DNA from: a virus
Length of the DNA stretch: 64,000 nt
Strand: one strand, 5' to 3'
IMG/VR virus record: IMGVR_UViG_3300025133_000042
Span: 32,001-96,000 of that record
The position numbers and the translations under genes are program-made. The notes below the pieces were generated by a model. It saw nothing but the letters and a program-made list of their open reading frames with translations, did not search any database and was not told the origin of the DNA. Below are positions 1 through 23,835 of this stretch, in pieces. The stretch's first letter is position 1. Every line of letters starts with the position of its first letter.

Positions 1-518
1 GAAGGACTGCCGTAATAGTGTGTCTCGCTAGCGTCCAGATCCTGATGAGAACGCAGTTCATGAATACGAACACCGGTGACCAGAGCAAGGTGGGGCTGCT
101 GGTTATACATAACCTCAACTAGCGTGCCGATGCCAAAACCCTGTTCGACCATGCTGCGAGTATATCGCTCGTGCTGACGCTTGATTGCTGCGGTCCAGTT
201 GACAATCTTTTGCTTGCGGTCTGGACAGGTGCGCTTTGTGTGACCAGGCTCGTGGCAATGAGAACACTTACGATTCTTGCCACGCTTGGCAGACACTTTA
301 AGCGCAGCCTTGTGGCTTTCAAGATTCCGCTTTGCATAATTGCGCTCCCAGTCGTCAGTAAAGTTGTCTTCTGCGATTTGCTTTTCGTAGCCAGCAATCT
401 GATCTTTGTGGTTCTGCGTCTTTGCCTTGCATGAACTCTTGTTGTGTCCCTGCTCATAGCAATAGCCGCATGTCACTGTGCGAACATACTTTCCATTCTC
501 ATCTAGTCTATAAGCCAC
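1..518 (-). CDS. Protein with two CCHC zinc knuckles (runs off the window edge; missed by the ORF track)
   Basis: GTG at 518 after GGAGG, open to position 1: MAYRLDENGKYVRTVT-CGYCYEQGHNKSSC...RK-CSHCHEPGHTKRTC, i.e. two C-x2-C-x4-H-x4-C motifs. Confidence 0.85.
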   Translation of the reverse strand, partial: MAYRLDENGKYVRTVTCGYCYEQGHNKSSCKAKTQNHKDQIAGYEKQIAEDNFTDDWERNYAKRNLESHKAALKVSAKRGKNRKCSHCHEPGHTKRTCPDRKQKIVNWTAAIKRQHERYTRSMVEQGFGIGTLVEVMYNQQPHLALVTGVRIHELRSHQDLDASETHYYGSP

Positions 519-587
519 AATACCCTCCAGTATAATTATCAGACTTGCATAAAACATAGCCACTTTTCTGGGCTAGTAAAATATATT

Positions 588-663
588 TGGTGCCCCCTGT
601 CCGGGTCGAACGGACGACCTATCGGTTAAAAGCCGAGTGCTCTACCAACTGAGCTAAGGAGGC
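588..663 (-). tRNA. tRNA-Lys(UUU)
   Basis: Cloverleaf GCCTCCTTAGCTCAGTTGGTAGAGC...CTTTTAA...GTTCGACCC...GGGGGCACCA, CCA encoded. Confidence 0.95.
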
Positions 664-672
664 GAAATGTGA

Positions 673-813
673 ACTGGCGAGGCCCAGCCTACGCCCCCAG
701 AGCCCGCATGACAGGATTCGAACCTGCAACCTCTAGCCTAAAGCTAGCGCTCGATCCTAGTGAGCTACACGCGAGATGGGCTGCGATGCGGGGAGTTGAA
801 CCCCGTCGCCAGT
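673..813 (-). ncRNA. Putative structured RNA enclosing the atypical tRNA
   Basis: 8-bp inverted repeat ACTGGCGA/TCGCCAGT (673-680, 806-813) closes a second T arm CGGGG-TTCAACT-CCCCG and a small GGC-TGG-GCC hairpin. Confidence 0.4.
703..774 (-). tRNA. Atypical tRNA-like gene, shortened anticodon arm, anticodon UUA (ochre-suppressor-like)
   Basis: Acceptor TCGCGTG/CATGCGG, D stem GCTC/GAGC, T arm GCAGG-TTCGAAT-CCTGT; anticodon arm CTAG-CTTTAGG-CTAG is 2 nt shorter than canonical; no CCA. Confidence 0.7.
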
Positions 814-849
814 GATACAACTATAAGAGCCGAGCGCGCAGAGTAAAGA

Positions 850-1170
850 CTAATCTTCCATTATCTTGCTAAGGGCTTCCAATGTCTTTTCCAAGACCTG
901 TAGCGCTGCGATGTCTTTAACGGTCTCAAGAGTGCTTGAGGCTGCATCATTGTGGAGCGATAAGAAATCTTGGGAACTCATCTGGGCCGGCTGATAGAAC
1001 TTGTCTTGAGAATCAGAACTTATAGAAGTGTTTTTCTCTTCTGCGTTCTTCCCCGCAGCCTTGTTCTGCTCTTGCCCTTGAGCACCGTTTGTGCCAACAG
1101 ATTGGCCTTGACCAACAGCGGCGGGGCGTATCATGCCGCTGGACGCGGGTGATACTGAACCAACTTTCAT
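850..1170 (-). CDS. Hypothetical protein, low-complexity N-terminus and helical C-terminus
   Basis: ORF; start moved to MKVGSVSP after AAAGG. Confidence 0.7.
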   Translation of the reverse strand: MKVGSVSPASSGMIRPAAVGQGQSVGTNGAQGQEQNKAAGKNAEEKNTSISSDSQDKFYQPAQMSSQDFLSLHNDAASSTLETVKDIAALQVLEKTLEALSKIMED

Positions 1171-1706: not shown

Positions 1707-2270
1707 TCAAAAAATCTCCTCCGCATAAGAGACTTTTCTTGCATCTAACTTAATTTGCGGATATTTCTCTTGTAAGCGCCTAACGCAATCAACATTGGCG
1801 CGAGAATCATCTAAAAACAATATGTCTTTGTGACCTCTAAGAATCTTTTTCTCGATCCAGTCTGCTTTGGCTTGACTATCAGAATCATCCAAAGTAACCA
1901 ACTCTATCGTATTTGTCATATCGAAGCCTAAATCTTCTAAATATGTGATGATAGCCATTCGTGCGGCGTTCTGACGAGCGGTCAAAATAACAACTTTCTC
2001 GTCTGTACCAGCGTCACATGATTCTCTAAGCAAGCTGGTCACCTGTGTAATCTCGCGAGGGTTGACGACGTTTTCAAAATCTGAAAAATCGTACTCATTG
2101 CGCGAGTTTTTATTGTGAAGCTTAAAATCTGAAGTTGAAATATTTTCCTCGCGGCCATTTGGATAAGTTACGTTTACCACGCAATCTGTCTTGACCAGAG
2201 TGTCATCAAAATCAAATACGCACAGCTTTTCTTTTAGCTGGCGAGCTTTATAATTATACCATTTTCTCAT
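1707..2270 (-). CDS. HAD-superfamily phosphatase (PNKP 3'-phosphatase-like)
   Basis: Motif I VFDFDDTL, motif II ILTAR, Lys in AKADW, motif IV FLDDS. Confidence 0.85.
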   Translation of the reverse strand: MRKWYNYKARQLKEKLCVFDFDDTLVKTDCVVNVTYPNGREENISTSDFKLHNKNSRNEYDFSDFENVVNPREITQVTSLLRESCDAGTDEKVVILTARQNAARMAIITYLEDLGFDMTNTIELVTLDDSDSQAKADWIEKKILRGHKDILFLDDSRANVDCVRRLQEKYPQIKLDARKVSYAEEIF

Positions 2271-6185: not shown

Positions 6186-6189
6186 GGGC

Positions 6190-6242
6190 TGGCAGCCGAG
6201 GCGGGACTCGAACCCGCAAGCCCTAAGGGGCGACAGATTTTA
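6190..6242 (-). pseudogene. 3' half of a class II (Leu-like) tRNA truncated at the anticodon loop
   Basis: TAAAATCTGT-CGCCCCTTAGGGC-TTGCGGGTTCGAGTCCCGC-CTCGGCTGCCA; no 5' half upstream. Confidence 0.8.
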
Positions 6243-6303
6243 CTTTGTAACAAACCACCCTCAACTTGTGGCCTTGAACTCAATATTATTGATATTCACT
6301 CTA

Positions 6304-6580: not shown

Positions 6581-6605
6581 AAAATGGGCGCAAAGCGCCC
6601 GCGGG

Positions 6606-21000: not shown

Positions 21001-21484
21001 GATAGAAGTTATCACCCTGGTGAGAGTCAGAAACTATCTTGAAGATATTGTTCAAGCCAGTCTGATTCATAGCTAGCAACACAAGATGACCGCTATTATT
21101 AAGTTTGCTGGACTTGCCCTTAGAAGCCGTTTCGTCTTCTGCTTCGACTTTATCTGTGTCGTTGATGACCTTACGTGCTTGCTTCTTATCTTCTTTAATT
21201 CGATCGTACTCTCCCCTCCACTCCTCGATGGAGGCAATAAAATAGGCCTCGACGCCGAAGATTGGCTTAAAGGTCTTGCCTTGGGACTGCATCTTCTTTG
21301 CATGCAGAACCTGATAAGACAGACCATTCATGTTCCCATGGTCTGTCAAAGCAAGGGCCTCCATGCCATTTTCATATGCAAAGTCCATATGGTCTTGCGG
21401 ATATCCAAAACCATCGAAGACCGAACCAGCAACGCTGTGTGCGTGCAAACCCACGAAGGGAATCTTACTCTCTTTTCTATTCAT
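18053..21484 (-). CDS. dnaE: DNA polymerase III alpha subunit (family C)
   Basis: PHP HAHS/TDHG/GVEAY/ADSHY, GRGSAAGS, PDIDYD, KFDLLGL, YGFNKSH, IKGLG. Confidence 0.97.
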   Translation of the reverse strand: MNRKESKIPFVGLHAHSVAGSVFDGFGYPQDHMDFAYENGMEALALTDHGNMNGLSYQVLHAKKMQSQGKTFKPIFGVEAYFIASIEEWRGEYDRIKEDKKQARKVINDTDKVEAEDETASKGKSSKLNNSGHLVLLAMNQTGLNNIFKIVSDSHQGDNFYRKPRLDYKLLKEHGEGVIASSACLGGVYAKDYWNNRDDGPEAVLGAMRATTRKMMDCLGDRWYGELQWNNVPEQHELNKYVIQMHEEFDIDLISTADSHYPSAAAWKDRELYKRLGWLGKSKNKPEYLKSELPVDVDEMGMELYPKNGDQMWESYKKYSKECGVEYDDDLIYDSLVKTHWIANERIEAFMPDDTVRLPGFVVPSGADAEETLIKESIAALRKLGFDNNKEYIDRLKHELTVINERGFSKYFLTMKAISDMANKHMLSGPGRGSAAGSLVAYALGITQVDPIKYGLLFSRFLRSDATDYPDIDYDVSDAFGLKEILAKEWGDTTVVPISNFNTLQLRSLIKDISKLYDVPFVEVNSVTGRMVREATPKAKADHGIRAGMYIPTFEEVMKYSDSLIKFLDKYPDIKTHVEALVGQVRSTSRHAGGVVIGEDLDRHMPLICSKGVVQTPWSEGQNVRHLEPLGFIKFDLLGLSTLEMIQSAVGHVLKRYHGNENPSFQDIKEYYDSKLHPDKIDLSDQKVYENIFQKGNFMGVFQFTNAGAQKFCKRAKPKDIIDISAITSIYRPGPLSAGVDKRYVKAKHSPEEINYLNDLDKGVTEETAGFLIFQEQIALLAHKLGKDLTMDEGNALRKLLTKKGTGKGAQAKNKIYDKFIAGCVEKGIDRSTAQGLWQKFEYFSGYGFNKSHAVSYSILSFQCAWLLNYYPECWAAAFLDKEPESRKEAAISLAQKHGFNIEQININTSTEQWEIAGDGKTLIQPFSSIKGLGEKAVEQILNNRPFTTVEELLYNEEIVYSKLNKKALDVLCRSGALDSLVDERFTGCKHFWMSCIQDKPKSQKKLEENINLYAPEEDFTREEKIDFVSSLTGMFPFDLVLTKRIREAINRNMVPPLGNYDEDLGISWFIPREIIPKKTKNDKLYWIVKVIDDTSTTSSIKCWGIKDDDHIYINRPYAAKLQYSEDWGFSTRSIRHTFRMLG

Positions 21485-21500
21485 ATTTGCCTCTGCAGAC

Positions 21501-21528
21501 ATTATAGAGACACAAAAGAGGAAATCAA
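21501..21528 (-). promoter_or_regulatory. Sigma70-like promoter of dnaE
   Basis: TTGATT-N16-TATAAT. Confidence 0.6.
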
Positions 21529-21725
21529 ACAGAAAGTGAATTATCTTTTTCAAAGAGGTAGAGACCAGTCTCTTCTAGGTTCAGCCTCTTTGGGATGGCT
21601 GCAAGCGGAAGAAGGCCATGAATGACAAAGACCAGGCCGGTGAGAAGCAGGCGCGCTCCAATTCCGCATGCAAAAAGTAAATGCTCCAGATATGACATAT
21701 TTTTCTCTTGTAAGTGTTTAAACAT
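21525..21725 (-). CDS. DUF6356-like small protein
   Basis: HLQEKNMSYLEHLLFA...IHGLLP. Confidence 0.7.
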   Translation of the reverse strand: MFKHLQEKNMSYLEHLLFACGIGARLLLTGLVFVIHGLLPLAAIPKRLNLEETGLYLFEKDNSLSV

Positions 21726-22494
21726 CGTCTTCTACTCCTATACCGCTTAACTCGTTTTTCGGTATTAACGCGGGCTTTTGCAATGACTGCGAAAGAGCCT
21801 CTAAGTAAGTATCCCAACAAACAATACTGTCATAAGTTTTTATCTCTATCTTTTTAAAATTATTTACTTCTTCAAATATTCTTATGTCTTGGTCATTGTA
21901 CCTATCATGAGAATATTTTTTTATAATCACATCCAAAGTTGAAGGGGGGAAGCTGGCGCCCAAGAAATCATTAGTCGCTATTGACTTGCCCTCAGAAGAG
22001 AGAGATATGCTTTCGCCTGAGCTTATTTCAGATCGGTATGGCTGTATGCAGCTTGGGTCGTATACCCCGCAAGGAAATGAAACATAGTAGCTTGTGGGCT
22101 TGAGCCATTTGCTCATCCCAGCTGATATCTTCTTCGATGTCAAGCCGCCGGCTAGAATTGAAAGCCAAGTGTTCTTCTGTTTGTAGAACCTTACGCCAAC
22201 AGGAACATAGTATATCTTTATAAGCTTTCGATGCTCGTCAGGATATCTAGCTCTTGTTCTATTAAAGTAAACAGGATCATAGACGTAATCGCCGATTGCG
22301 TGGCGGACCAGCGGCTTGGTGTCGTCGTCGCACACTAGCCAGATTGTATTACATCCAGCATATGCGCACTCTATTACAGCGCGTTCGATGGCCAAGTAAT
22401 TTAATGATATTGGCAACAAGGCGGGCCCGACAGGGCTGGTGATTTCAGACTCAATGCCTGAAACAGGGATTATTCCGGCTATATGTCGTATCAT
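21718..22494 (-). CDS. Degenerate sugar-nucleotidyltransferase-like protein
   Basis: AGIIPVSG...LLPI...AIERAVIECAYAGCNTIWLV, lacking the G-x-G-T-R and K residues. Confidence 0.6.
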   Translation of the reverse strand: MIRHIAGIIPVSGIESEITSPVGPALLPISLNYLAIERAVIECAYAGCNTIWLVCDDDTKPLVRHAIGDYVYDPVYFNRTRARYPDEHRKLIKIYYVPVGVRFYKQKNTWLSILAGGLTSKKISAGMSKWLKPTSYYVSFPCGVYDPSCIQPYRSEISSGESISLSSEGKSIATNDFLGASFPPSTLDVIIKKYSHDRYNDQDIRIFEEVNNFKKIEIKTYDSIVCWDTYLEALSQSLQKPALIPKNELSGIGVEDDV

Positions 22495-22504
22495 TAAGAA
22501 CCTT

Positions 22505-23155
22505 TCAGGAAGTTAATTCTACCACATGATAAAGTTGTTTTTCAATTGGGTAGACATCTCTCTTCCAGAGATTCATCTTGGTCTCTACTCCAGCAGAGGA
22601 GAAAAGCTTTTCTAACTTCTGTCTTATAGTTGTGTCCGAATACTCTAGATCTTGAAGGTCTTCGGAAGTGAGATGCTGTTCGACGAGAACATCCCTCTTG
22701 TCGTTCTTTTGATCTATTCTTGTAGAAGGAAATGTCTTAATTGATTTAACCTTGCCCCAAGTATGGTACTGGACTTCCAGGGTCTCTGATGAGCCTCGTA
22801 CATCAAGCCAGTCTATGACCCTGTAATAGTCTACTTCGCTATCTACTTCCGAACAAGCGACGTTCGACGCGCTGAAGAGATGCACCCTGGGACAAACAAT
22901 GCTTGTCTTAACTCGGGGATGATGCACTATCATTCCGTCACGCAAATCAATAGCGACGGGCGGGGTGGTAAAAGGCGTACGCCCTTCAAGGGCGGCGTTC
23001 CAGAGCATGCTAGCTGCCATTTCTTCTTCTGGTTCATATGAGTGATATTTTAACCTAGAGTTGAGGATGATGTTTAAGCCGCACTCATCTGCGAACTGCA
23101 TAGCGGCCATGGTGTGGCCAATAACAACATCCTCTTCCAGATTTAAAACTAGCAT
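22505..23155 (-). CDS. Hypothetical protein, degenerate Rossmann-like N-terminus
   Basis: DVVIGHTMAAMQFA. Confidence 0.55.
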   Translation of the reverse strand: MLVLNLEEDVVIGHTMAAMQFADECGLNIILNSRLKYHSYEPEEEMAASMLWNAALEGRTPFTTPPVAIDLRDGMIVHHPRVKTSIVCPRVHLFSASNVACSEVDSEVDYYRVIDWLDVRGSSETLEVQYHTWGKVKSIKTFPSTRIDQKNDKRDVLVEQHLTSEDLQDLEYSDTTIRQKLEKLFSSAGVETKMNLWKRDVYPIEKQLYHVVELTS

Positions 23156-23835
23156 CCAGGCACAAAGTTTCTTTCTACTTTAATAAGGCGATGCCATTTT
23201 TTGAGCAAGGATAGGTGCAACGGCTTTTCTCGGCAACGGCCGTCGGCTTTTGGGGCTCTGATTGCGGTGACCCATGCAGCAACCCACCGTCGTTCCGGAG
23301 TTTTGTATCTGCAAAGACTTTTGACTTTTGGCAACCTCTTTATTATGTGCTGCATCCAAGCATGGGCCGCGGCCACGTGGTCGGATCGATCGATCCCGTA
23401 TCCCCTCTTCTTATTTTCCCACCATGGCCACATCTGTAGAATGCCGAGTGCCATGGGCTTCCTTTTCGATTTGCTGAATTTATGATCCCCCTTGGCATTG
23501 GGATTGTATCCGCTCTCCTTGCAGGCGGCTGCAAGGAGCATCCCGCGAAGTGACGCAGGAACTGAATATTGTTTTTCAATTTCAATCAAATCATTAATTA
23601 TGCCTTCACTTGCTAGCGACACGTTCTTCACGTTCCTGCAGTTGATAATGGCCTGCTCTCTTATTTCTTCATAAGTTACAGGGCCGTCGACGTCATTTGA
23701 GATGGGGTTGACGAACGCCGGCGCCTCAGTCTCATAAAGATTAATCAAGCTGACATAAGGATTCGTGTCTCCAGGAGCCAGCGCTTGCATCACAAGGATA
23801 GGTAATATATACTTCATACTTAAAGAGATCTCCAA
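23149..23835 (-). CDS. Lytic transglycosylase (SLT-like), candidate endolysin
   Basis: KESGYNPNAKG...ALGILQM; hydrophobic N-terminus. Confidence 0.8.
   Translation of the reverse strand: MEISLSMKYILPILVMQALAPGDTNPYVSLINLYETEAPAFVNPISNDVDGPVTYEEIREQAIINCRNVKNVSLASEGIINDLIEIEKQYSVPASLRGMLLAAACKESGYNPNAKGDHKFSKSKRKPMALGILQMWPWWENKKRGYGIDRSDHVAAAHAWMQHIIKRLPKVKSLCRYKTPERRWVAAWVTAIRAPKADGRCREKPLHLSLLKKWHRLIKVERNFVPGC

What the first reader, a model, noticed from the sequence alone, without database searches (positions are those of the whole stretch)
668..820. Nested RNA: a permuted-tRNA / Y-RNA-like frame wrapped around the UUA tRNA
Seen on the minus strand, in order: ACTGGCGA, a perfect T arm (CGGGG-TTCAACT-CCCCG), CGCAGCCCA, the whole atypical tRNA, TGGGGGCG, a mini hairpin GGC-TGG-GCC, then TCGCCAGT, which pairs 8 bp with the first element. 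Known: the order closing stem, T arm, acceptor-like stem, D-like arm, closing stem is the topology of bacterial YrlA Y RNAs and two-piece tmRNA tRNA-like domains. Inference: excising the inner tRNA would leave a two-piece tRNA mimic. Caveats: acceptor-like pairing is imperfect, and no Ro60 motif or gene is visible.
Basis: partly seen in the sequence, partly recalled or inferred. Interest (0 to 1): 0.7.

Follow-up and report, generated by a model that had tools for sequence, protein, structure and literature searches.

The report
Structured flanks around odd phage tRNA
The hairpins and 8-bp closing helix around this marine phage's odd UUA tRNA are real and fold as described, but they look like the cut-off tail of an older tRNA gene behind a phage promoter plus a GC-rich spacer, not a Y RNA or permuted tRNA, and no related sequence was found to test whether the fold matters.

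Summary
Observation confirmed, with slightly different coordinates. On the minus strand the order is: closing helix 813-806/680-673, T-arm hairpin 805-789, UUA tRNA 774-702, mini hairpin 689-681, then tRNA-Lys 663-588.

A promoter of the phage's own family (847-820) should start transcription at about A813, the first base of the helix. For that transcript the proposed four-way "frame" is the minimum-energy fold, with helix probability about 0.7.

The Y-RNA and permuted-tRNA reading is not supported:
- The Rfam YrlA model scores 15-27 bits against a threshold of 69, and it scores the same at ordinary tRNA-tRNA junctions.
- No Ro60, RtcB, RNA ligase or tmRNA family is found in the held record, which is 58% complete.
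- The junction linkers (0/3/2/0) differ from YrlA (4/0/2/0).
- The re-joined halves are not called a tRNA.

The leader reads best as the last 37 nt of a truncated tRNA-like gene: variable loop, T arm, 7-nt acceptor strand, discriminator and a CCA-like end.

No homologue exists in related phages, IMG/VR or GTDB genomes, so covariation could not be tested. Strain variants keep the flank parts they cover unchanged, with unlike sequence beyond about 825 and 672.

The 8-bp helix has a chance probability of about 0.01 for this tRNA and about 0.07 across the phage's seven tRNAs.

Verdict: a relic-derived structured precursor, function unproven, modest interest. The scan noted this same stretch before, in this genome only.

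The parts
820..847 (-). Promoter-like site: -35 TTTACT (847-842), 16-nt spacer, -10 TATAGT (825-820). Predicted start is about A813.
   Evidence: One search gives 9 of 12 consensus matches. One search finds 7 sites of the family TTTACT/TTGACT-N16/17-TATA(G/C)T in the 104.9-kb record, all on the gene strand, against my estimate of about 0.5 expected by chance. Relatives carry TTGACT-N16-TATAGT at the same place, right after the upstream gene's stop and before their tRNAs. The start site itself is inferred.
806..813 (-). 5' strand of the closing helix; the first 8 nt of the predicted transcript.
   Evidence: 8 of 8 Watson-Crick pairs with 680-673. Pair probabilities are 0.34-0.71.
789..805 (-). 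Orphan T-arm hairpin: 5-bp GC stem and 7-nt T-loop UUCAACU.
   Evidence: It is one of only two all-Watson-Crick orphan T arms in the record. Pair probability is 0.93-0.97. The same T-loop occurs in tmRNA and tRNA-Glu of other phages.
777..788 (-). Tail of the leader. It reads as a 7-nt acceptor 3' strand, a discriminator and a CCA-like end with one extra C. In the frame model, 785-783 and 780-777 pair with 694-692 and 699-696.
   Evidence: Spacing is canonical tRNA 3'-end spacing, read directly. The leader's similarity to the 3' halves of 213 tRNAs gives z = 5.4, p < 0.005. Frame pairs have probability 0.6-0.95.
702..774 (-). Inner tRNA with UUA anticodon. The anticodon arm is 2 nt short and there is no encoded CCA.
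   Evidence: ARAGORN. Rfam tRNA 47.4 bits, with a deletion in the anticodon arm. Four strain variants (736, 747, 759, 770) keep all pairs.
692..699 (-). 3' strand of the acceptor-like pairing.
681..689 (-). Mini hairpin: 3-bp stem and loop UGG. It directly abuts the closing helix.
   Evidence: pair probability 0.92. In an alternative fold it is the tip of a local 8-bp spacer hairpin.
673..680 (-). 3' strand of the closing helix.
   Evidence: Homology of a strain-variant contig stops at 672 (record 29).
664..672 (-). 9-nt single-stranded tail before tRNA-Lys.
588..663 (-). Normal tRNA-Lys(UUU) with encoded CCA; the second gene of the unit.
   Evidence: Rfam tRNA 64.6 bits.

Best explanation
Positions 847-588 on the minus strand form a small tRNA transcription unit of a marine T4-like phage.

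- A promoter of the phage's own family starts RNA at about A813.
- The unit encodes an aberrant UUA tRNA and a normal tRNA-Lys.
- The 39-nt leader is the surviving 3' end of an older tRNA- or tmRNA-like gene whose front was replaced by the promoter cassette. It keeps the variable loop, T arm, acceptor 3' strand, discriminator and a CCA-like end.
- The 38-nt spacer is a GC-rich, hairpin-forming segment.

If the helix forms in the cell, its most likely effect is on the precursor. It would bury the triphosphate 5' end and extend the acceptor helix of the CCA-less inner tRNA, and so stabilise the precursor or delay and order RNase P and 3' trimming.

It is not a Y RNA, a tmRNA or a permuted tRNA gene.

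Shown: the sequence elements, the promoter family, the energetics, the tRNA-3'-end character of the leader, and the absence of the element from relatives.

Inferred: the start site, that the helix forms in vivo, and any effect on processing.
For: - Promoter: with positional homology in relatives.
- The frame is the MFE of 813-664, with helix probability about 0.7.
- The flanks are 63-67% GC in a 45.5% GC genome. Their fold is the most stable of 39 natural tRNA contexts.
- The trailers of the other CCA-less tRNAs, Arg and Asn, are AT-rich and unstructured.
- The leader resembles tRNA 3' halves (z = 5.4), whereas the spacer does not resemble 5' halves (z = 0.9).
- No full tRNA is called upstream, even at relaxed settings.
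- A second tRNA-like relic lies 4 nt before tRNA-Met. It has an intact acceptor stem, T arm and CCA but a degenerate core, which shows that this phage keeps such remnants next to tRNAs.
- Relatives have promoter + tRNA-Ile(UAU) + tRNA-Met at the matching place, with short leaders and no frame.
- A contig in run X4 matches only 756-813, at 88% identity, and is unlike beyond 813. That is what an intact ancestral tRNA at this spot would give (record 24).
Against: - No transcript data exist, so the start at 813 is only predicted.
- With upstream read-through the frame is not the MFE.
- Two local hairpins are a competing fold and would form first during transcription.
- The 8-bp helix is only modestly improbable: 0.011 for this tRNA and about 0.07 across the phage's seven tRNAs.
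- The relic reading does not explain why strain variants show 4 changes in the 73-nt tRNA but none in the 45 flank nt covered by record 29.
- It also does not explain why homology ends within 1 nt of the helix's 3' end. Both points hint at a selected or mobile unit.
Confidence: 0.5

Rival explanations
1. The frame is a functional tRNA-mimic RNA, Y-RNA-like. After RNase P and 3' processing release the inner tRNA, the leader and spacer stay annealed as a two-piece RNA. That RNA displays a T-loop and a GG loop and binds a protein partner or acts as a decoy.
For: - The element order matches the YrlA consensus, including the UA linker before the D-like hairpin.
- M. smegmatis YrlA is cut by RNase P into two pieces.
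- The frame is the MFE.
- The flank parts that were covered are unchanged in strain variants, and block ends lie at the helix ends.
- Earlier notes of this scan report many permuted tRNA mimics in phage tRNA clusters. These are unchecked leads only.
Against: - YrlA hits reach 15-27 bits against 69, the same as at control tRNA junctions.
- The held record has no TROVE or RtcB gene.
- The Rsr-binding motif GNCGAA is missed by one base and lies in a fully paired helix.
- The linkers are 0/3/2/0, not 4/0/2/0, so the T arm stacks on the closing helix and not on the acceptor-like stem.
- The D-like arm is only 3 bp with a 3-nt loop.
- No homologue exists in relatives.
Confidence: 0.12
2. The closing helix never forms. 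The leader and the spacer each fold into a local hairpin that flanks the tRNA as separate processing, pausing or stability signals. These are the extended T-arm hairpin 812-781 and the spacer hairpin of about 695-676.
For: - Both local hairpins are predicted when each flank is folded alone.
- They would form first during transcription.
- The gain from pairing the two flanks to each other is not significant against shuffles (p = 0.25).
Against: At equilibrium the frame is 8.7 kcal/mol better and takes about 70% of the ensemble.
Confidence: 0.2
3. Positions 813-673 are a discrete, exchangeable DNA cassette with 8-bp terminal inverted repeats that carries a tRNA. It moves between phage genomes by recombination, and the RNA fold is a by-product.
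For: - Variant contigs share the block but have unlike sequence beyond about 825, 813 and 672.
- The genome is built of shuffled cassettes. Relatives carry different tRNAs at this spot, and first-stage notes describe cassette arrays.
Against: - No target-site duplication is seen beside 813 or 673.
- There is no second copy of the 8-mer pair or of the block in the record.
- There are no copies in IMG/VR or GTDB genomes.
- Logan contigs often break at variants, so the boundaries are soft evidence.
Confidence: 0.12

Closest known systems
YrlA, the bacterial and phage Y RNA with a tRNA-like domain (Rfam RF02553; Chen et al. 2014, PMC4201824)
   Same: - The order of elements is the same: closing stem, T arm, acceptor-like stem, UA linker, D-like hairpin, closing stem.
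- One YrlA, from M. smegmatis, is cut by RNase P in the acceptor-like stem and becomes two pieces.
   Different: - The model score is far below threshold.
- There is no Ro60 gene.
- The Rsr-binding motif is absent.
- The linker lengths are wrong for a tRNA-like L shape.
- The D arm is minimal.
- The acceptor-like stem is closed by a whole 73-nt tRNA instead of a short loop.
tRNA gene remnants and pseudo-tRNAs in phage tRNA clusters
   Same: - The leader has the exact layout of a tRNA 3' end and sits 2 nt before the next tRNA.
- A second tRNA-like relic in the same phage sits 4 nt before tRNA-Met.
   Different: - The relic lies directly behind a promoter, so it would be transcribed as a leader.
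- Its first 8 nt pair with the downstream spacer.
Leader-trailer pairing in tRNA precursors, which lengthens the acceptor helix and affects RNase P processing (my own knowledge of tRNA processing, not checked in a paper here)
   Same: The sequences on either side of the inner tRNA pair and prolong its acceptor helix.
   Different: Here the pairing is part of a four-way junction with two extra hairpins. It ends in an 8-bp helix that includes the predicted 5' terminal base.
Phage T4 stable RNAs rnaC and rnaD in the tRNA cluster (NC_000866: 70908-71171)
   Same: - They are non-coding, tRNA-derived RNAs next to tRNA genes of a T4-type phage.
- rnaC ends in a T arm plus acceptor-like stem.
   Different: - In T4 rnaC the T arm is at the 3' end of a free-standing RNA.
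- Here the T arm is at the 5' end of a leader, and the RNA encloses a tRNA.
- There is no sequence similarity.
Two-piece (permuted) tmRNA
   Same: - The piece carrying the T arm lies upstream of the piece carrying the 5' acceptor strand.
- There is no variable loop.
- The T-loop is UUCAACU, as in tmRNAs. A relative's tmRNA has the same loop.
   Different: - No tmRNA family or ARAGORN hit.
- No tag reading frame.
- The acceptor pairing is poor.
- There is no ACCA end.

Membership tests
YrlA / bacterial Y RNA | Match to Rfam RF02553 at or above the gathering score of 69 bits | tested here: not met
   The best hit in the record is 27 bits, at the ordinary tRNA-Gly/tRNA-Arg junction. The hit at 608-753 scores 21.6 bits and uses the inner tRNA's T arm with the D arm of tRNA-Lys. 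The orphan T arm with the inner D arm scores 15.2 bits.
YrlA / bacterial Y RNA | Ro60 (TROVE) gene nearby, typically within 4 kb on the same strand (PMC4201824) | tested here: not met
   PF05731 finds nothing at E <= 1 in the 104.9-kb record, while the control genomes give hits. Neighbouring and large unknown proteins show no TROVE domain. The record is only 58% complete.
YrlA / bacterial Y RNA | GNCGAA(N0-1)G motif near the 5' end (the Rsr-binding region) | tested here: not met
   The nearest string, at 810-805, differs at the sixth base and lies inside a fully paired helix.
YrlA / bacterial Y RNA | tRNA-like junction: about 4 nt before the T arm, 0 nt between the T arm and the acceptor-like stem, UA, then a full D arm | tested here: not met
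   The linkers here are 0 / 3 / 2 (UA) / 0. The D-like arm is 3 bp with a 3-nt loop. This comes from comparing the frame with the Rfam consensus line.
Two-piece or standard tmRNA | Match to the tmRNA models, a tag reading frame, and an alanine-type acceptor end | tested here: not met
   RF00023, RF01849 and RF01851 give no hit on the frame. ARAGORN tmRNA mode finds nothing. Only 9 nt follow the helix before tRNA-Lys.
Permuted or split tRNA gene | The re-joined halves form a recognisable tRNA | tested here: not met
   ARAGORN calls nothing on the re-joined pieces at default settings. It gives only an undetermined call at a lowered threshold with an artificial loop. Acceptor pairing in register is 4 of 7, the variable loop is 0-1 nt and the D arm is 9 nt.
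Permuted or split tRNA gene | Bulge-helix-bulge motif at the joined ends, together with a splicing endonuclease and a ligase | tested here: not met
   The terminal helix has 8 perfect pairs and no bulges. No RtcB, Rnl1 or Rnl2 is found in the record. The Rnl1 search rang in no control genome either, so it is not informative.
tRNA gene remnant (3' part) | Canonical layout: 5-nt variable region, 17-nt T arm with T-loop consensus, 7-nt acceptor strand, discriminator, CCA | tested here: met
   Positions 810-777 read this way, with one extra C in the CCA. Similarity to tRNA 3' halves gives z = 5.4. No matching 5' half is called upstream.

The most novel reading that the evidence does not exclude
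The 141-nt RNA from 813 to 673 is a purpose-built phage RNA. In it, a non-decoding tRNA look-alike (UUA, short anticodon arm) is mounted on a rearranged tRNA-mimic scaffold. Processing then yields a tRNA-like piece and a two-strand T-loop-bearing duplex. These would act as decoys or handles, for example against host tRNA-targeting nucleases. That idea fits the adjacent tRNA-Lys(UUU) and a Pnkp-phosphatase-like gene 0.9 kb upstream.
Probability: 0.1. Interest if true: 0.7.

Novelty: new member of a known kind. Interest (0 to 1): 0.3.

Why it matters
If the helix only reflects a tRNA relic behind a promoter, this is a small example of how phage tRNA clusters are rebuilt by cassette exchange and leave transcribed tRNA fragments behind.

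If the fold is selected, it would be a new way for a phage to package or time the release of an unusual tRNA. It would also be a Y-RNA-like scaffold without Ro60. Either would bear on how phages counter host attacks on tRNAs. The present evidence does not justify that stronger claim.

Tried and rejected
- Close relatives by DNA. Megablast and blastn against GenBank phages found only generic tRNA matches.
- Exact or degenerate pattern scans. IMG/VR gave no relative of the module. The 15 hits are ordinary tRNA-Glu or tmRNA junctions. GTDB genomes gave nothing.
- Upstream ORF as an anchor in IMG/VR: no relatives.
- Capsid-based relatives. Eleven long records were screened for tRNAs, orphan T arms and the frame model R1. 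No frame was found. The one full-length R1 hit is a tmRNA 3' end followed by tRNA-Gly.
- Relatives of the downstream Zn-finger gene from metagenomes. They carry tRNA-Ile(UAU) + tRNA-Met instead. The closest complete relative has no tRNA there.
- Protein homologues of the Zn-finger gene are at most 51% identical over their full length.
- Sequencing runs: no RNA holder listed.
- Contigs from 4 DNA runs gave 4 variants inside the tRNA and none listed in the flanks, so no covariation test was possible. The 7 differences of record 24 were not itemised.
- The region upstream of 813 as the missing 5' half of a tRNA: alignments to the phage's tRNAs were not significant (z <= 2.5).
- The spacer as a tRNA 5' half: not significant.
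- Plus-strand reading: its loops lack T-loop and D-loop identity, and all genes and promoters are on the minus strand.
- The 8-mer as a repeated protein-binding site: no enrichment.
- Insertion of a tRNA-carrying element into a tRNA gene, as in earlier notes of this scan: rejected, because the half order here is 3' then 5'.

Full report
**Setting.** The window is bases 32001-96000 of a 104,857-base IMG/VR virus record, estimated to be 58% complete. It encodes a T4-type major capsid protein and portal, plus GroEL, a DnaB-like helicase and a ribonucleotide reductase. Nearly all genes are on the minus strand. GC content is 45.5%. The runs that hold the stretch are recorded as marine or seawater metagenomes. 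The closest capsid relatives in IMG/VR are only 59-69% identical.

**What is there.** Reading the minus strand, the elements come in this order:
- stop codon of a small gene at 852-850;
- a promoter-like site with -35 at 847-842 and -10 at 825-820;
- the 8-nt strand 813-806;
- a perfect T-arm hairpin at 805-789;
- a 12-nt tail at 788-777 and a 2-nt spacer;
- tRNA(UUA) at 774-702;
- a 38-nt spacer that holds a G-rich strand (699-692), UA, a 3-bp/3-nt hairpin with loop UGG (689-681) and the 8-nt strand 680-673;
- nine further bases;
- tRNA-Lys(UUU) at 663-588.

The two 8-nt strands are perfectly complementary. Its span of 668-820 is slightly too wide.

**Promoter and 5' end.**
- The site at 847-820 belongs to a family (TTTACT or TTGACT, 16-17 nt, TATA[G/C]T) with seven members in the record, all on the gene strand. 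I estimate about 0.5 would be expected by chance on both strands.
- Relatives carry TTGACT-N16-TATAGT at the same position, directly after the stop of the upstream small gene and before their tRNAs.
- A start about 7 nt after the -10 element falls on A813, the first base of the helix. This start site is inferred, not measured.

**Does the frame fold?**
This holds whether or not the inner cloverleaf is forced (-51.9 kcal/mol when forced).
- The closing pairs have probability about 0.7, the T arm 0.93-0.97 and the mini hairpin 0.92.
- With 32 extra upstream bases the frame is not the MFE, so the result depends on the 5' end.
- Each flank can also fold alone, into an extended leader hairpin and a spacer hairpin. 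The frame is 8.7 kcal/mol better than that pair of hairpins.

**Is it more than chance?**
- At least 8 contiguous complementary bases between leader and spacer arise in 1.1% of dinucleotide shuffles. That is about 7% over the seven tRNAs.
- The total flank stability has z = -2.9 (p = 0.009). It is the lowest of 39 natural tRNA contexts.
- The inter-flank gain is not unusual for such GC-rich sequence (p = 0.25).
- The flanks are 63-67% GC.
- The trailers of the other CCA-less tRNAs are AT-rich and unstructured.

**Known families.**
- *YrlA.* RF02553 gives 21.6 bits at 608-753, using the inner T arm and the D arm of tRNA-Lys. It gives 15.2 bits at the orphan T arm with the inner D arm, and 27 bits at the plain tRNA-Gly/Arg junction. 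The threshold is 69 bits. These are generic T-arm/D-arm matches.
- *Deinococcus Y RNA.* 14.4 bits, E = 8.7.
- *Partner and repair genes.* No TROVE, RtcB, Rnl1 or Rnl2 genes were found. The Rnl1 search rang in no control genome either, so it says little.
- *tmRNA.* No tmRNA family or ARAGORN tmRNA was found.
- *YrlA motif.* Chen et al. define YrlA by a nearby Ro60 gene, a GNCGAA motif and tRNA-like T and D arms. The motif is missed by one base here.
- *Geometry.* In the YrlA consensus the linkers around the junction are 4/0/2/0. Here they are 0/3/2/0. The T arm is therefore continuous with the closing helix and not with the acceptor-like stem. This does not reproduce the acceptor-T minihelix of tRNA.
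- *Re-joined pieces.* ARAGORN does not call them a tRNA at default settings.

**What the leader is.**
- Positions 810-777 read as a 5-nt variable region, a 17-nt T arm, a 7-nt acceptor strand, a discriminator and CCA with one extra C. They lie 2 nt before the next tRNA, which is the normal layout of a tRNA 3' end in this phage.
- The leader is significantly similar to the 3' halves of 213 tRNAs (z = 5.4). The spacer is not similar to 5' halves (z = 0.9).
- No 5' half is detectable upstream.
- The same phage has a second tRNA-like relic at 6262-6189. It has a 7-bp acceptor stem, T arm and CCA but a degenerate core, lies 4 nt before tRNA-Met, and is not called by ARAGORN or Rfam.
- Orphan T arms next to tRNAs were not seen in 417 kb of relatives.
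- A relative carries a tmRNA ending in the same T-loop directly before tRNA-Gly, so a tmRNA origin for the relic is also possible.

**Comparative evidence.**
- No homologous module was found in GenBank phages, IMG/VR, GTDB genomes or related phage records.
- Loci with the downstream Zn-finger gene carry promoter + tRNA-Ile(UAU) + tRNA-Met.
- Contigs from marine runs show strain variants.
- Records 23 and 29 share 702-825 and 672-789. Their four itemised differences (736, 747, 759, 770) all lie inside the tRNA and preserve pairing: G.U to A-U, two C-G to U.G, and one D-loop change. No flank differences are listed.
- Their sequences become unlike beyond 825 and 672.
- Record 24 matches only 756-813, at 88% identity.
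- This pattern is compatible with a conserved or exchangeable block. It is also compatible with record 24 representing an intact ancestral tRNA. The counts are too small for significance.

**Conclusion.** The structure is real on paper and plausible in the cell. Its Y-RNA or permuted-tRNA identity fails every membership test I could run. The most economical account is a promoter-started tRNA precursor. Its leader is a truncated tRNA tail, and its ends happen, or have been selected, to pair. I give about 0.5 to this account, 0.2 to separate local hairpins, and about 0.12 each to a functional tRNA-mimic RNA and to a mobile cassette.

**Related observations.**
- TAA is the commonest stop in the phage, ending 46 of 98 long frames. 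The inner UUA tRNA is therefore unlikely to be an efficient decoder.
- A Pnkp-phosphatase-like gene lies 0.9 kb upstream.

Noticed in passing
window 6189-6262 (minus strand): An unannotated tRNA-like element with a 7-bp acceptor stem (two G.U pairs), a perfect T arm at 6217-6201, a discriminator and CCA. The D and anticodon regions are degenerate, with a 4-bp stem capped by CUUA. It lies 4 nt before tRNA-Met, where relatives have tRNA-Ile(UAU). Neither ARAGORN nor Rfam tRNA calls it.
   Followed up: partly
window 702-774: The inner tRNA has a UUA (ochre) anticodon, an anticodon arm 2 nt short and no encoded CCA. TAA ends 46 of 98 long frames in the phage, so efficient suppression would hit its own genes. 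Four strain variants keep the pairing.
   Followed up: partly
window 1707-2270 (minus strand): A 187-aa protein matches PHROG 415 'polynucleotide kinase' (E = 6e-9) and weakly matches the Pnkp HAD phosphatase domain. It lies 0.9 kb upstream of tRNA-Lys(UUU), which suggests a tRNA-repair or anti-anticodon-nuclease theme. No RNA ligase was found in the held part of the genome.
   Followed up: partly
G000 genome-wide, e.g. window 2305, 847; genome 31441, 24693, 23788, 20785, 96807: Seven promoter-like sites of one family (TTTACT/TTGACT, 16-17 nt, TATA[G/C]T), all on the gene strand. They are likely the phage's early promoters.
   Followed up: partly
L083:1163-1572 (a complete 187-kb relative): A related T4-like phage encodes a 332-nt tmRNA (tag ANNNLYFEEALAA) directly upstream of tRNA-Gly(GCC).
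   Followed up: no
L108, L109, L112, L117 versus window 517-850: The tRNA pair in front of the conserved Zn-finger gene differs between relatives (Ile-UAU + Met) and this phage (UUA + Lys). Extra small genes are inserted in some relatives. This points to cassette-like turnover at this spot.
   Followed up: partly
window 6581-6600 (minus strand): A GC-rich hairpin followed by a T run lies immediately upstream of tRNA-Leu(UAA). It looks like an intrinsic terminator ending the previous unit.
   Followed up: no
G000:713-1696 and 21127-23718 (minus strand): A nucleotidyltransferase-fold protein (NTP_transf_2, at the Pfam threshold), and a MoxR-type AAA ATPase next to a DUF2201 vWA-like metallopeptidase. 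Neither is Ro60-like.
   Followed up: no
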